From an uncultured Fretibacterium sp. (GTDB lineage Bacteria > Synergistota > Synergistia > Synergistales > Aminobacteriaceae), in assembly GCA_937911045.1 (NCBI GenBank), contig CALEPX010000004.1:17421-81420 (forward strand): a DNA stretch of 64,000 bases, given 5' to 3'. Of this stretch, positions 56,339 to 58,483 are shown piece by piece. The notes under the pieces are model-generated. The model saw only the letters and a list, made by a program, of their open reading frames with translations. It had not been told where the DNA came from and ran no database searches. The position numbers and the translations under genes are program-made. Each line of letters opens with the position of its first letter. Position 1 is the first letter of the stretch.

Positions 56339-57283
56339 CTAAATCTCCTCCTCACTGAACAGCGCGTAAAATCCGTAAAGCGTCCCAGCCACGATTAAGC
56401 CAACGCATATATTCAGTGGCAGAATTAATCCCGCACTGAAAATATTTCCGAGCTCTCCTTTGGGAATATGCGATTCGAAATCATTTGCTCCGGTGAAGAA
56501 TGACCAGCCCTTCGACAATGCGTAAATCATCAATGCAGCCGAACTCATAATCACAAATTTTCTCTCGCTGAAGAATTTATGCACGCTCTCAAATCCGTAA
56601 GCATTCGCAGCCAAAATCAGCGCAGCACTCAGAATCGCTCCTCCGGAAAATCCTCCGCCCGGTGTCAGATGCCCGTTCAAAATCACGATGCAACCCAGAA
56701 AAACAATCGCTGGGATCGAAATCAACGCAACGCCTCGCAAAATCGAATCGTCCTTAGTGAATTTGTGCAGACGTTCGCCGGAATTTTTCGAATCACGACG
56801 AGACGCAGCCAATAACATCAGCACACTCACAGCAGCCGTGAATAGCACCGCAGATTCTCCGAACGTATCAAACGCGCGATAATCCAGAATCATTCCTGAG
56901 ACGATATTTTGCGCACCAGTTTCTTCGCCGCCGGAAATTATGTAGCGTTCCATGACTTCGTTATTTGCCGGATTATTCTCAGAGCCAAATTTCGGTAATT
57001 CCGCAACAGTTGCTAGTAACAACAACACGATTACAACGCAAATCAACACGCTCATTCCTGAATACACGTTCGAGAACAAATGCAAGCCGTGAATTTCCAG
57101 CCAACGCGAGTATCTCTCATGTAAAGTCTGCTCATGAAAGCGCGAATTTCTGGATTCCTGTTTCTGCGTGAACGGCAAATCCGGTGGAGCTTCGGGAATT
57201 ATTTCTTCGTTCTCAGGTCTTGCGCCGTTGCCCATAACCCAGTTGAAAAAATTTCGCCATATGATCCTCAGATCCTCATTCAA
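56339..57283 (-). CDS. mnhB: Mrp subunit B-like protein (fused MbhE/MbhF-type modules) with an N-terminal extension
   Basis: ILDYRAFDTFGESAVLF and NGHLTPGGGFSGGAILSAA are MnhB-domain motifs. TTG start. Confidence 0.8.
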   Translation of the reverse strand: MNEDLRIIWRNFFNWVMGNGARPENEEIIPEAPPDLPFTQKQESRNSRFHEQTLHERYSRWLEIHGLHLFSNVYSGMSVLICVVIVLLLLATVAELPKFGSENNPANNEVMERYIISGGEETGAQNIVSGMILDYRAFDTFGESAVLFTAAVSVLMLLAASRRDSKNSGERLHKFTKDDSILRGVALISIPAIVFLGCIVILNGHLTPGGGFSGGAILSAALILAANAYGFESVHKFFSERKFVIMSSAALMIYALSKGWSFFTGANDFESHIPKGELGNIFSAGLILPLNICVGLIVAGTLYGFYALFSEEEI

Positions 57284-57289
57284 GACACA

Positions 57290-57508
57290 TTAAGCCTCCT
57301 CGTCACCAAAAGTTTTCTTAATTTCCGCGATAATTTCTGGTGAGACGTTCTTTCGAGTCAAAAACGCTGCGATTTTTTCTACAGTTTGTGAGCGAGCACT
57401 ATCGAACCCCTGAAAATAACCGTCAGTCCATTCCAAAAATGACGTTACTTTCGGATTATCTTTCCATTTCTCTTTCATTTTTTGTAGCTCTTCATATTCG
57501 TCTGACAT
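57290..57508 (-). CDS. 72-aa protein paralogous to the C-terminal domain of the adjacent Rpn-family nuclease (RpnS-like antitoxin candidate)
   Basis: SD AGGAGTGG lies 7 nt upstream. SFLEWTDGYFQGF...TVEKIAAFLTRKNVSPEIIAEI aligns with SFIEEWIEESENKGF...TLDEVAALLRQKGISPEIISEL of the 315-aa protein. Confidence 0.7.
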   Translation of the reverse strand: MSDEYEELQKMKEKWKDNPKVTSFLEWTDGYFQGFDSARSQTVEKIAAFLTRKNVSPEIIAEIKKTFGDEEA

Positions 57509-57535
57509 TTTTTTCCACTCCTATTTCAAACAAAC

Positions 57536-57754
57536 TTACCTGAGTTCAGAAATAATTTCCGGTGATATTCCCTTCTGCCTCAAAAGTGCTGCAACCTCGT
57601 CCAAAGTTTCTGCACGTCCCTCTGCACGACCTTCCGAACGCCCCATTGTGAAACCTTCCGAACGTCCTTCTGAACGTCCTTCTGAACGTCCTCTCATAAA
57701 ACCTTTGTTTTCGCTTTCTTCGATCCATTCCTCGATAAAAGATTTTTCCAGCAT
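57536..57754 (-). CDS. Candidate intragenic ORF giving a 72-aa C-terminal fragment of the Rpn-family protein, from an internal in-frame ATG
   Basis: GGGAGGAG (57770-57763) lies 8 nt upstream of the in-frame ATG at 57754. Confidence 0.4.
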   Translation of the reverse strand: MLEKSFIEEWIEESENKGFMRGRSEGRSEGRSEGFTMGRSEGRAEGRAETLDEVAALLRQKGISPEIISELR

Positions 57755-58483
57755 CTTGTTTTCTCCTCCCAAATTACTCTTAAATTTCTCAAATTCAAGC
57801 TTGAGTTCCTCGTCTCTGAGCCTGATTATCTGACCAACAAACATCAAAATATCCCGTCGATCTTGAATATTCCAGCCCCTGTTATTCAGTAACACAGCGA
57901 CTTCCTTCAAGTACGAGAATTTCTTGAACTCTTTCTCTCGCGTGAATCCGTTGTAATCCCTGAATTTCTTCGCAACGTAAATAATCGGATCAAACAGGTT
58001 ATTGCCACTCAATAATTCTTTGTCATTTTGAGCGTACACTTCGAAAACATTGTAAACATACCTGTGTTGCGTTCCGTACTGGTCGAACTCGTAAATTCCG
58101 GGTGTCTCGCGTTTAGGACGTTTGTGCGTGAGAATCGCCAGAGCAATCGGCATCTTGTGATAGTGCGCGAATATCAGACAGCAGTACAGCATCATTCGCC
58201 ACGAAATATCACGATTACCTTTCCCCTGAACTTCTATGTGCAGCAAAACCCACTCAGCTTCACCCGTCTTCAACTGAATCTCTACCAGCTCATCAACGTG
58301 AAGCGAAGATTTATGCTCATCAGAATTTTGCAAAGTGTCCTGCAGCTCCTGACTCAAAAATTTCGGCGCAATCGTGAAATCTGCATCGTGATAAAGCTCC
58401 GGAATAGTCTTCAGAACCAACTCCGGCAAAAATCTCCTGATACATTGTTTCCACCAAGCATCATGATCAAATTCTTCACACAT
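57536..58483 (-). CDS. Rpn/YhgA-family PD-(D/E)XK recombination-promoting nuclease / putative transposase
   Basis: HDAWWKQCIRRFLPEL N-terminus, HVDELVEIQ and VLLHIEVQGK (a D...E-x-Q core), MMLYCCLI, and (R-S/A-E-G)n repeats before the C-terminal domain. Confidence 0.75.
   Translation of the reverse strand: MCEEFDHDAWWKQCIRRFLPELVLKTIPELYHDADFTIAPKFLSQELQDTLQNSDEHKSSLHVDELVEIQLKTGEAEWVLLHIEVQGKGNRDISWRMMLYCCLIFAHYHKMPIALAILTHKRPKRETPGIYEFDQYGTQHRYVYNVFEVYAQNDKELLSGNNLFDPIIYVAKKFRDYNGFTREKEFKKFSYLKEVAVLLNNRGWNIQDRRDILMFVGQIIRLRDEELKLEFEKFKSNLGGENKMLEKSFIEEWIEESENKGFMRGRSEGRSEGRSEGFTMGRSEGRAEGRAETLDEVAALLRQKGISPEIISELR
57609..57692 (-). repeat. Seven tandem 12-nt units encoding (R-[SA]-E-G)-type tetrapeptides
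   Basis: ccttccgaacgt/ccttctgaacgt/tctgcacgtccc units on the + strand. The protein reads RSEGRSEGRSEGFTMGRSEGRAEGRAET. Confidence 0.85.

What the first reader, a model, noticed from the sequence alone, without database searches (positions are those of the whole stretch)
57536..57770. Internal SD and in-frame ATG in the Rpn-family nuclease gene predict an intragenic 72-aa RpnS-like protein
On the minus strand, GGGAGGAG (57770-57763) is followed by an 8-nt spacer and an ATG at 57754 in frame with the 315-aa ORF. Initiation there would give MLEKSFIEEWIEES...GISPEIISELR, which is only the C-terminal domain. The full-length protein has the YhgA/Rpn PD-(D/E)XK layout: an HD..WK N-terminus, VDELVEIQ and LLHIEVQGK. 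For E. coli Rpn proteins it has been reported that the long form is a toxic nuclease with antiphage activity, and that a short RpnS protein translated from an internal in-frame start of the same gene neutralises it. This gene appears to have the same architecture in what looks like a Synergistota genome. One caveat is that the SD is encoded by Gly-Gly-Glu codons and could be coincidental.
Basis: partly seen in the sequence, partly recalled or inferred. Interest (0 to 1): 0.78.

Follow-up and report, generated by a model that had tools for sequence, protein, structure and literature searches.

The report
Rpn nuclease gene with internal antitoxin start
This Synergistota gene is a divergent member of the known Rpn toxic-nuclease family. 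Like the E. coli genes, it carries a conserved internal ribosome-binding site and start codon that should produce a small self-inhibitor from its own tail, so it is a solid new example of a known mechanism and not a new one.

Summary
On the minus strand, GGGAGGAG (57770-57763), an 8-nt spacer and an in-frame ATG (57754) lie inside the 315-aa ORF 58483..57536.

It is the only strong SD plus in-frame ATG among 15,896 internal codons of 43 genes in the window.

All 22 Synergistota orthologues (37-90% identity) keep an SD 6-9 nt upstream of the aligned start codon, although the encoding amino acids change. Distant relatives in SD-using phyla keep both signals. Most Bacteroidota relatives keep only the Met.

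The site falls in a predicted disordered linker between the nuclease domain and the helical tail.

Standalone genes in L001, L003 and L016 begin exactly at this Met.

Four-residue repeats start 17 residues after it and vary in number between near-identical strains (8, 5 and 4 units).

Single-sequence Pfam and NCBIfam hits are below cut-off. Profile-profile comparison places the family with Rpn/PDDEXK_2 proteins (98.7%, E 3.6e-16), and the tail with the RpnA-S crystal structure (92.8%).

Verdict: a new, divergent member of the known RpnL/RpnS gene-within-gene toxin-antitoxin class. Translation, toxicity and inhibition are untested.

The gene belongs to a 3-gene cassette inserted into an mrp antiporter operon.

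The parts
57536..58483 (-). Long form (RpnL-like), 315 aa. It has a PD-(D/E)XK nuclease domain (residues 1-237), a linker, and a helical C-terminal tail.
   Evidence: ORF. The AF2 model gives confident residues 1-237. hhalign to RpnA and to PF04754/PF12784 proteins supports homology. D8, D64, E84, Q86 and R96 correspond to RpnA D11, D63, E82, Q84 and R94. An SD (GGAGG) lies 8 nt before the ATG at 58483.
57763..57770 (-). Internal Shine-Dalgarno sequence GGGAGGAG, encoded by the Gly-Gly-Glu codons of the interdomain linker.
   Evidence: Sequence. Anti-SD duplex energy is -10.2 kcal/mol, rank 4 of 315 in-frame positions. It is conserved in 22 of 22 Synergistota orthologues. Synonymous-codon resampling puts every orthologue at the strong end, combined p about 1e-4.
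57752..57754 (-). Internal in-frame start codon ATG (Met244), 8 nt after the SD.
   Evidence: Met244 is nearly invariant across 40 homologues. Standalone S genes in L001, L003 and L016 start exactly at this Met. It lies in a segment with pLDDT below 50 (residues 241-246).
57536..57754 (-). Predicted short form (RpnS-like), 72 aa: the conserved motif SFIEEW, then the repeat helix, then a terminal helix-turn-helix-like tail.
   Evidence: hmmsearch of the tail profile against PDB finds 7th0 (RpnA) at E 7e-4, the best non-repeat hit. hhalign to RpnA-S gives 92.8%, E 4e-7. The AF2 model shows a long helix 6-60 plus a helix 65-71 at moderate confidence.
57608..57705 (-). Array of four-amino-acid repeats (GFMR GRSE GRSE GRSE GFTM GRSE GRAE GRAE), starting 17 residues after Met244.
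   Evidence: TRF finds periods of 12, 24 and 48 nt. There are 8 units here, 4 in L040/P0001, and 5 (in-gene) and 4 (standalone) in L001. The nuclease-coding part is 96% identical between window and L001/L040 (698/729 nt) and 100% identical between L001 and L040. Unit number ranges from about 1 to 11 across orthologues.
57290..57508 (-). Separate 72-aa gene encoding a repeat-less paralogue of the short form (RpnSs-like), with its own SD (AGGAG).
   Evidence: BLASTP against the 72-aa short form gives 39% identity over 38 aa, E 1e-10. It is conserved at 80% identity in L001 and L040. Sequence.
58483..59388 (-). Upstream cassette gene: a 301-aa Sel1-repeat protein with hydrophobic N-terminal segments. 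Its stop codon overlaps the rpn start (TAATG). It is lineage-specific and is not a conserved partner of the family.
   Evidence: ORF. Pfam Sel1 hit at E 2e-6, below cut-off. It is present only in L001 and L040 among the loci examined.
57284..59409 (-). The whole inserted 3-gene cassette, lying between mbhD (59676..59410) and mbhE/mnhB (57283..56339) of an mrp/mnh antiporter operon.
   Evidence: In 19 related mrp operons, mbhD abuts mnhB directly. The same insertion is present in L001 and L040. No terminal inverted repeats or target duplication were found.

Best explanation
The 315-aa ORF is a divergent Rpn-family (YhgA-like) PD-(D/E)XK DNA endonuclease gene organised as a gene-within-gene toxin-antitoxin.

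Shown by sequence and comparison: ribosomes have a strong, conserved internal SD and ATG at Met244, placed in the disordered linker between the nuclease domain and the helical tail.

Inferred: initiation there yields a 72-aa short protein identical to the C-terminal tail of the long form.

Inferred by homology to E. coli RpnA/B/C/P2: the long form is a toxic non-specific nuclease that dimerises through the long repeat-bearing helix. The short form binds the same helix and blocks the nuclease. The number of four-residue repeats sets which short form fits which long form. Release of inhibition on phage infection gives abortive-infection-type defence.

The downstream 72-aa gene is a separately encoded, repeat-less paralogue of the short form, comparable to E. 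coli rpnESs/ypaA.
For: Site and rarity.

Conservation of SD plus start in 22 of 22 Synergistota orthologues despite changing amino acids; the SD ranks 1-11 of about 300 in-frame positions in each gene.

Codon choice is biased toward the SD. The key Gly codon is GGA or GGG in 22 of 22 genes, against 47% pooled usage; Fisher p about 1e-4.

Phylum-dependent signal: Proteobacteria, Planctomycetota, Opitutales and Francisellaceae relatives have SD plus ATG. Bacteroidota relatives keep the Met, and 8 of 10 have no usable SD.

The linker is disordered exactly at residues 241-246.

Natural split alleles: the standalone S gene in L001 begins at the same MLEKSFIEEW. L016 has three tandem standalone S genes, each with AGGAGG, 8 nt, then ATG-MPYESWIE. 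L003 has a double-S ORF. 8 of 21 loci have extra S copies.

L040's tail is 171/171 nt identical to L001's standalone S gene, and their N-terminal coding parts are 729/729 identical.

Family placement: hhalign 98.7%, E 3.6e-16 over 233 columns against RpnA plus PF04754/PF12784 proteins. The catalytic residues are matched. The tail matches 7th0 RpnA-S. Full-length relatives carry DUF4351 above Pfam cut-off.

E. coli rpnA has the same layout: AAGGAG, 6 nt, ATG at Met244.

Mechanism in E. coli: PMC10400941.

Orthologues sit next to BREX, RM/WYL-RtcB and plasmid-replication genes.
Against: There is no expression, toxicity or binding data for this gene or for any Synergistota homologue.

Single-sequence matches are below the curated cut-offs: Pfam Transposase_31 15.8 vs 21 bits, and TIGR01784 22.1 vs 52.1 bits. 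PADLOC finds nothing.

Foldseek against PDB gives no significant hit for the full model.

Much of the SD strength is already imposed by the Gly-Glu/Gly-Gly amino acids: the mean energy after synonymous resampling is still -6 to -10 kcal/mol. The codon-level signal is therefore modest, and the orthologues are not phylogenetically independent.

No sigma-70-like internal promoter was found upstream of the internal start, whereas E. coli rpn genes have one.

This copy sits inside a housekeeping operon and not in a defence island.
Confidence: 0.75

Rival explanations
1. The Gly-Glu-x-x-Met motif is conserved for protein reasons only, for example as a hinge or packing residue between domains. The SD-like sequence is a by-product of Gly/Glu codons, and no internal initiation occurs.
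For: After synonymous resampling, the amino-acid sequence alone still gives fairly strong SD energies of -6 to -10 kcal/mol. Most Bacteroidota relatives conserve the Met without an SD, which could be read as a protein-level constraint.
Against: The linker is predicted disordered (pLDDT below 50 at 241-246). The amino acids encoding the SD change between orthologues while the GGAG core and its 6-9 nt spacing stay. GGA/GGG is used 22 of 22 times. Standalone genes with their own SD start exactly at this Met in L001, L003 and L016. The homologous position in E. coli rpnA is an experimentally proven internal start (PMC10400941). Bacteroidota generally do not use SD (established knowledge), so loss there fits an initiation signal.
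Confidence: 0.08
2. The internal SD-like sequence acts as a translational pause site at the domain boundary. Anti-SD pairing would slow elongation and aid co-translational folding of the nuclease domain. It would not act as a start.
For: Its position is exactly at the end of the folded N-domain. SD-mediated pausing has been proposed in the literature (own knowledge, and disputed).
Against: Pausing does not need the conserved ATG or GTG 6-9 nt downstream. It does not explain standalone genes starting at that Met. It does not explain retention of the Met without an SD in most Bacteroidota relatives.
Confidence: 0.04
3. The short protein is made, but its main role is not antitoxin. It could be a helix-turn-helix transcriptional regulator or a DNA-targeting subunit. 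Alternatively the long form could be a recombination or mobility enzyme and not a defence toxin.
For: The tail resembles HTH-like three-helix modules: weak RecX_HTH hits, and Zhong et al. note HHpred relatedness to HTH. The cassette has inserted into an mrp operon, which shows mobility. RpnA promotes RecA-independent recombination (PMC5350276).
Against: In E. coli the short forms directly inhibit the nuclease and toxicity, with repeat-number specificity. The same repeat hypervariability is seen here. No terminal repeats or target duplications flank the cassette. Orthologues lie in defence and mobile contexts.
Confidence: 0.13

Closest known systems
E. coli RpnA-E / RpnP2 RpnL-RpnS gene-within-gene toxin-antitoxin (Zhong et al. 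2023, PMC10400941; Kingston et al. 2017, PMC5350276)
   Same: The N-terminal PD-(D/E)XK core has the D, D, E-x-Q and R residues. The internal SD plus ATG lies in frame at the start of the variable tail; in RpnA it is AAGGAG-6 nt-ATG at Met244, and here GGGAGGAG-8 nt-ATG at Met244. Four-residue repeats begin 8-20 residues after the internal Met (17 here) and vary between strains. The tail is homologous to the RpnA-S structure 7th0. There are additional standalone S genes downstream. There is evidence of fusion and deletion between the long gene and the standalone S gene. The genes are multi-copy and patchily distributed, lack transposon ends, and have neighbours in defence islands.
   Different: Only about 14% profile identity to bona fide Rpn proteins. 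The protein is below the Pfam PF04754, NCBIfam TIGR01784 and PADLOC thresholds, so current annotation pipelines call it hypothetical. The host is Synergistota. No internal sigma-70-like promoter is detectable. This copy is embedded in an mrp antiporter operon with a Sel1-repeat membrane protein. Relatives can carry arrays of up to three standalone S genes with graded repeat numbers (L016).
DUF4351 (PF14261)-containing PDDEXK_2/'YdaD' proteins of Cyanobacteria, Proteobacteria and Planctomycetota
   Same: Full-length relatives at 25-30% identity (P0077; L034, L035, L037) have DUF4351 above cut-off, beginning right after the conserved Met. They share the D...ExQ core and the domain order.
   Different: The window protein itself does not reach the DUF4351 threshold. 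Its tail is dominated by GRSE/GRAE repeats.
Other internal-start two-product genes (e.g. Cas10d/Cas11d in type I-D CRISPR, cited in PMC10400941)
   Same: An in-frame internal start yields a C-terminal fragment that assembles with the full-length product.
   Different: In those cases the fragment is a cooperating subunit and not an inhibitor. There is no homology.

Membership tests
Rpn (YhgA-like) recombination-promoting nuclease family, RpnL/RpnS system | N-terminal PD-(D/E)XK core with the residues shown essential in RpnA (D11, D63, E82, Q84, R94) | tested here: met
   hhalign aligns VDELVEI/HIEVQG/WRMMLY to SDVLWSV/LIEHQS/FRMMRY. D64, E84 and R96 are invariant and Q86 is at least 90% conserved in 40 homologues; the consensus DxDGxWK matches RpnA HDALFK. 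The RpnA mutant data are in PMC5350276.
Rpn (YhgA-like) recombination-promoting nuclease family, RpnL/RpnS system | Score above the curated cut-off of Pfam PF04754 Transposase_31 / PF12784 PDDEXK_2 or NCBIfam TIGR01784 | tested here: not met
   PF04754 scores 15.8 bits against a cut-off of 21 (E 0.011). TIGR01784 scores 22.1 against 52.1. 16 of 40 family members hit PF04754 at E below 0.01 (best E 2.4e-4); bit scores against the 21-bit cut-off were not listed for them. One distant relative (L030) reaches 21.1 bits.
Rpn (YhgA-like) recombination-promoting nuclease family, RpnL/RpnS system | Significant profile-level homology to bona fide members over both domains | tested here: met
   A1 against A2 (RpnA plus two PF04754 and seven PF12784 proteins): probability 98.7%, E 3.6e-16, 233 aligned columns. 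A1 against RpnA alone: 88.3%, E 2.9e-6 on the catalytic core.
Rpn (YhgA-like) recombination-promoting nuclease family, RpnL/RpnS system | In-frame internal translation initiation site (RBS plus start codon) at the beginning of the C-terminal tail | tested here: met
   The sequence signal is present, rare and conserved. Actual initiation cannot be tested with these tools.
Rpn (YhgA-like) recombination-promoting nuclease family, RpnL/RpnS system | Four-amino-acid repeats starting 8-20 residues after the internal Met, with number varying between strains | tested here: met
   The repeats start at residue 18 of the short form (17 residues after the internal Met). There are 8 units in the window, against 4 (L040) and 5 and 4 (L001), with 96-100% identical nuclease-coding parts. 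The criterion is taken from PMC10400941.
Rpn (YhgA-like) recombination-promoting nuclease family, RpnL/RpnS system | C-terminal tail homologous to RpnS (three-helix bundle with a long first helix; PDB 7th0; DUF4351) | tested here: met
   Sequence-profile homology: hmmsearch E 7e-4 to 7th0 and hhalign 92.8%, E 4e-7. The model is helical (long helix plus terminal helix) but only of moderate confidence. No structural superposition was obtained, and the full-model Foldseek search was uninformative.
Rpn (YhgA-like) recombination-promoting nuclease family, RpnL/RpnS system | Internal promoter giving a short transcript for RpnS | tested here: inconclusive
   No sigma-70 consensus match lies inside the gene upstream of 57770. 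Synergistota promoter rules are not covered by the scan, and no transcript data are available.
Rpn (YhgA-like) recombination-promoting nuclease family, RpnL/RpnS system | Long form toxic DNA endonuclease; short form binds and inhibits it; antiphage activity | not testable with these tools
   This requires expression, nuclease, pull-down and plaque assays.
Rpn (YhgA-like) recombination-promoting nuclease family, RpnL/RpnS system | Patchy, multi-copy, horizontally moved genes without transposon ends, often near defence genes; optional standalone rpnSs downstream | tested here: met
   The insertion into the mrp operon is absent from 19 related operons. There are no inverted repeats or target duplication. 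At least 6 copies occur in one Fretibacterium MAG. Neighbours include BREX, RM and WYL-RtcB genes. Standalone S genes are present.

The most novel reading that the evidence does not exclude
The downstream standalone S genes may form a recombination reservoir that re-tails the nuclease. There is one here without repeats, two in L001 and L003, and three with graded repeat numbers in L016. Homologous exchange starting at the shared sequence just after the internal ATG would swap the long form's C-terminal tail, and with it the specificity of its built-in antitoxin, for a stored variant. This would resemble cassette-type antigenic variation applied to a toxin-antitoxin defence gene. The L001 versus L040 pair is one observed event of this kind: identical nuclease parts, with L040's tail 171/171 nt identical to L001's standalone copy.
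Probability: 0.15. Interest if true: 0.6.

Novelty: new member of a known kind. Interest (0 to 1): 0.35.

Why it matters
The RpnL/RpnS gene-within-gene antitoxin principle has been shown experimentally only in E. coli, plus one C. difficile gene expressed in E. coli.

This case extends the principle by comparative evidence to a divergent Synergistota branch that Pfam, NCBIfam and PADLOC all miss. Defence-system censuses therefore undercount such genes.

The internal start is under selection as a nucleotide signal. It is kept as SD plus ATG where SD is used, and as Met alone in most of the Bacteroidota relatives examined.

The natural split, fused and arrayed S alleles give ready-made constructs for testing repeat-number specificity.

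For genome annotation, the lesson is that one ORF here encodes two proteins.

Tried and rejected
1. Single-sequence family scans (Pfam, NCBIfam, PADLOC) gave only sub-threshold Rpn hits. They also gave spurious FliH, Yae1 and RecX matches caused by the EG-rich repeats.

2. phmmer of the protein against PDB found nothing meaningful.

3. Foldseek of the full AF2 model against PDB gave no hit with E below 0.1. The top of the list contained several PD-(D/E)XK nucleases (Cap4, EcoO109I, CinB, EndoMS), but none was significant. I did not run Foldseek on the short-form model because it is essentially one long helix of moderate confidence.

4. The tail-profile PDB search was topped by designer pentatricopeptide proteins. 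These are additive weak repeat matches with no individually significant stretch, and I rejected them as artefacts.

5. The internal promoter scan found nothing.

6. Local mRNA folding around the site showed no significant structure.

7. The search for terminal inverted repeats or a target duplication around the cassette gave only chance-level short matches. GC content does not mark the cassette.

8. I rejected the Sel1 protein as a conserved partner, because it is found only in the two closest loci.

9. No second Rpn-like copy exists in the window.
Full report
**1. Observation**

On the minus strand the sequence reads ...AGTAATTT GGGAGGAG AAAACAAG ATG CTG GAA AAA... GGGAGGAG lies at 57770-57763, followed by an 8-nt spacer and ATG at 57754. 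The ATG is codon 244 of the 315-aa ORF 58483..57536. Initiation there would give a 72-aa protein, MLEKSFIEEWIEESENK-(GFMR GRSE GRSE GRSE GFTM GRSE GRAE GRAE)-TLDEVAALLRQKGISPEIISELR.

I checked whether this is rarer than chance. I took 43 putative genes of at least 200 aa in the window, which hold 15,896 internal in-frame codons. I scored the -17..-4 region of every internal ATG for pairing with the anti-SD. Only one ATG reaches -9 kcal/mol or better, and it is this one at -10.2. Within the gene, the only other ATG with a comparable SD is the annotated start. The local mRNA fold leaves the SD in a loop and has no significant structure.

**2. What the gene is**

Single-sequence scans give only sub-threshold matches:
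- Pfam Transposase_31 (YhgA-like): 15.8 bits against a cut-off of 21, on residues 61-110.
- NCBIfam TIGR01784 (Rpn family): 22.1 bits against 52.1, on residues 194-313.
- PADLOC: nothing.

A database search found about 75 close clusters (43-90% identity), all from Synergistaceae or Fretibacterium-type metagenome bins and none annotated. More distant full-length relatives carry DUF4351, PDDEXK_2 or Transposase_31.

In an alignment of 40 homologues (A1), D64, E84 and R96 are invariant, Q86 is nearly so, and the N-terminus has the consensus DxDGxWK. hhalign of A1 against E. coli RpnA aligns these to D63, E82, Q84 and R94 (88%, E 2.9e-6). D11, D63, E82, Q84 and R94 are the residues whose mutation abolishes or alters RpnA activity (PMC5350276).

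Against a small alignment of RpnA plus nine proteins with Pfam-assigned PF04754 or PF12784 (A2), the match is 98.7% probability, E 3.6e-16, over 233 columns that span both domains.

The tail profile (A3) finds the RpnA-S crystal structure chain 7th0 as the best non-repeat hit in the PDB (E 7e-4). hhalign against it gives 92.8%, E 4e-7.

Distant full-length relatives (L034, L035, L037) have DUF4351 above Pfam's cut-off, starting just after the conserved Met.

The family is therefore a divergent branch of the Rpn/YhgA-like group. It is homologous over its full length but invisible to current curated thresholds.

**3. Is the internal start real?**

I fetched DNA for 39 relatives from representative genomes, plus one metagenome contig.

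*Conservation in Synergistota.* In all 22 Synergistota sequences (the window plus 21 fetched orthologues) an AGGAG, GGAGG or GGGAG core lies 6-9 nt upstream of the aligned start codon, which is ATG in 20 and GTG in 2. Its anti-SD energy ranks 1-11 of about 300 in-frame positions in each gene.

*Nucleotide-level selection.* The amino acids encoding the SD differ between orthologues: LGGENK, LKGENK, FQGDDT, TKGGEN, EGDGDT, TEGGKR, IKGESE, ILEGKK. The nucleotide core and its spacing persist.
- The key Gly codon is GGA or GGG in 22 of 22 genes, against 47% pooled usage.
- Synonymous resampling puts every orthologue at the strong end (fractions 0.02-0.41).
- The Fisher combined p is about 1e-4 for 19 distinct sequences.
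- This statistic is approximate, because the sequences are related and the amino acids alone already encode a fair SD.

*Other phyla.* Distant relatives from Duganella/Pseudoduganella, Francisellaceae, Planctomycetaceae and Opitutales also have SD plus ATG at the aligned position. Bacteroidota relatives (Pedobacter, Dyadobacter, Puia and others) keep the Met, and 8 of 10 have no usable SD. Bacteroidota are known to make little use of SD (own knowledge), so this is the pattern expected of a translation signal and not of a protein motif.

*Structural position.* AlphaFold2 gives a confident N-domain (residues 1-237), a segment with pLDDT below 50 at 241-246, and then helices. The start therefore sits in an unstructured linker.

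**4. Natural split alleles**

These are the strongest evidence.

*L001.* This locus is 87% identical at protein level and has the same genomic context. The long gene is followed by a separate gene whose product begins MLEKSFIEEW..., exactly at the internal Met. Upstream of that ATG the sequence is unrelated.

*L016.* The long gene has GGAGG-8 nt-ATG-MPYESWIE internally. It is followed by three tandem small genes. Each has AGGAGG, 8 nt, then ATG; each starts MPYESWIE; and they carry roughly 4, 3 and 1 four-residue repeats.

*L003.* A downstream 143-aa ORF consists of two fused S-like domains, each starting at the same motif.

Overall, 8 of 21 Synergistota loci have extra S-like copies downstream.

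*L001 versus L040.* Their nuclease-coding parts are 729/729 nt identical. L040's tail is 171/171 nt identical to L001's standalone gene, but only 144/170 identical to L001's in-gene tail. L040 is therefore related to L001 by a recombination or deletion whose upstream boundary lies at or just after the internal ATG. The window's tail is closest to the same standalone copy (161/171), so it appears to be of the fused type too. Zhong et al. describe exactly such standalone rpnSs genes and fusions.

**5. Repeats**

TRF finds periods of 12, 24 and 48 nt at 57608-57705. Unit counts are:
- window: 8
- L040: 4
- L001 in-gene: 5
- L001 standalone: 4

These differences sit beside nuclease-coding parts that are 96-100% identical. 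Across orthologues the count ranges from about 1 to 11. The repeats begin 17 residues after the internal Met, within the 8-20 range given for RpnS.

**6. Comparison with the known system**

Zhong et al. 2023 (PMC10400941) showed the following for E. coli rpnA-E, for plasmid rpnP2, and for a C. difficile gene:
- An internal start makes RpnS.
- RpnS binds and inhibits the toxic nuclease RpnL.
- Repeat number sets specificity.
- RpnP2 protects against T-even phages.

In rpnA the internal site is AAGGAG-6 nt-ATG at Met244, the same layout as here.

All sequence-level defining features are met. The exceptions are the curated family score (not met) and the internal promoter (inconclusive). Toxicity, nuclease activity, inhibition and defence cannot be tested here.

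I therefore class this as a new, divergent member of a known kind. It works like RpnLS with confidence of about 0.75. About 0.85 applies to the claim that the internal start is used, and less to the antitoxin and defence roles, which are inferred by homology.

**7. Context**

The gene is the middle of a 3-gene cassette:
- a Sel1-repeat membrane protein (59388..58483), whose stop overlaps the rpn start as TAATG;
- the rpn gene;
- a 72-aa repeat-less paralogue of the short form (57508..57290; 39% identity over 38 aa, E 1e-10).

The cassette lies between mbhD and mbhE/mnhB of an mrp-type antiporter operon. In 19 related operons, the best 72% identical, mbhD directly abuts mnhB. The cassette is therefore an insertion, and it is shared only with L001 and L040. 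No terminal inverted repeats or target duplication flank it, and its GC content is unremarkable.

Other orthologues sit beside BREX genes, beside restriction-related and WYL-RtcB genes, or beside plasmid replication and primase genes. One Fretibacterium bin has at least six copies. These are the patchy, mobile, defence-associated habits described for rpn genes.

**8. Rivals**

- A purely protein-level constraint (0.08) is contradicted by the changing amino acids, the disordered linker and the standalone genes.
- A translational pause site (0.04) explains neither the conserved start codon nor the standalone genes.
- The short protein could be made but serve mainly as a regulator or targeting subunit, or the long form could be a recombination enzyme and not a defence toxin (0.13). 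This cannot be excluded without experiments.

**9. Verdict**

The finding is sound but not new in kind. Its value lies in three things: it extends the RpnL/RpnS architecture to a branch that annotation and defence-finder models miss, it gives cross-phylum evidence that the internal start is selected as a nucleotide signal, and it supplies natural split, fused and arrayed alleles for experiments. Interest is 0.35.

Noticed in passing
window 57284-59409 (minus strand), flanked by mbhD 59676..59410 and mnhB 57283..56339: A 2.1-kb three-gene cassette (Sel1-repeat membrane protein, Rpn-like gene, small S-like gene) is inserted in the middle of an mrp/mnh Na+/H+ antiporter operon. 19 related operons lack it, and only the two closest relatives (L001, L040) share it. 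No terminal repeats or target duplication are present. All flanking mrp genes remain intact. RpnLS complexes are reported to dissociate at alkaline pH and Mrp antiporters serve pH homeostasis, so co-transcription might be more than accident. That link is pure speculation.
   Followed up: partly
window 58483-59388 (minus strand): A 301-aa protein with hydrophobic N-terminal segments and C-terminal Sel1 repeats. Its stop codon overlaps the Rpn start (TAATG), which suggests translational coupling. It is found only with the two closest orthologues, and its function is unknown.
   Followed up: partly
L016 4961-5614: Downstream of one Rpn-like gene in a goat-rumen Synergistaceae bin lie three tandem standalone S genes of 70, 66 and 59 aa. 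Each has AGGAGG-8 nt-ATG and the same first eight residues, and they carry about 4, 3 and 1 four-residue repeats. This looks like a graded set of antitoxin variants. Published E. coli examples have a single extra copy.
   Followed up: partly
L001 4001-5416 versus L040 9043-10214: These look like two alleles of the same locus. The nuclease-coding parts are 729/729 nt identical. L040's tail equals L001's standalone S gene (171/171 nt). L001 keeps a different in-gene tail with 5 repeats and a different end. This is a recent tail replacement or deletion by recombination, with its upstream boundary at or just after the internal ATG.
   Followed up: yes
L003 4963-5394: A 143-aa ORF downstream of the Rpn-like gene consists of two fused S-like domains in tandem, each beginning with the conserved SEM(T/N)WI motif.
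   Followed up: partly
window 59410-59445 and 57283-57300 versus L047 3470-3503: At the insertion junctions mbhD has acquired a different His/Glu-rich C-terminal tail (HHEHEHESGSK). mnhB starts with TTG where the uninterrupted relative has ATG. The 3' end of the small S-like gene (GACGAGGAGGCTTAA) resembles the original mbhD 3' end (GACGACGAGGAAATAGGGTAG), and it probably supplies the SD for mnhB.
   Followed up: no
L002, L006, L008, L010, L020, L023 (all from assembly CALGGR01): A single Fretibacterium metagenome bin carries at least six copies of this Rpn-like family on different contigs. This is typical of the copy-number variability reported for rpn genes.
   Followed up: no
L042 2300-10284; L044 1-11300: Orthologues lie next to a BREX system (BrxL, BrxC/PglY) with a HIRAN-domain gene, and next to restriction-related genes (EcoRI-methylase-like, Lar) and a WYL-RtcB pair. 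These are probably defence islands in rumen and gut Synergistota.
   Followed up: no
alignment A3 versus PDB: The S-tail profile gives apparently strong E-values (1e-14) to designer pentatricopeptide repeat proteins. These arise from ten additive weak matches to the motif GR.E.a.e...m...G..P, and none is individually significant. This is a trap for automated annotation of these tails.
   Followed up: yes
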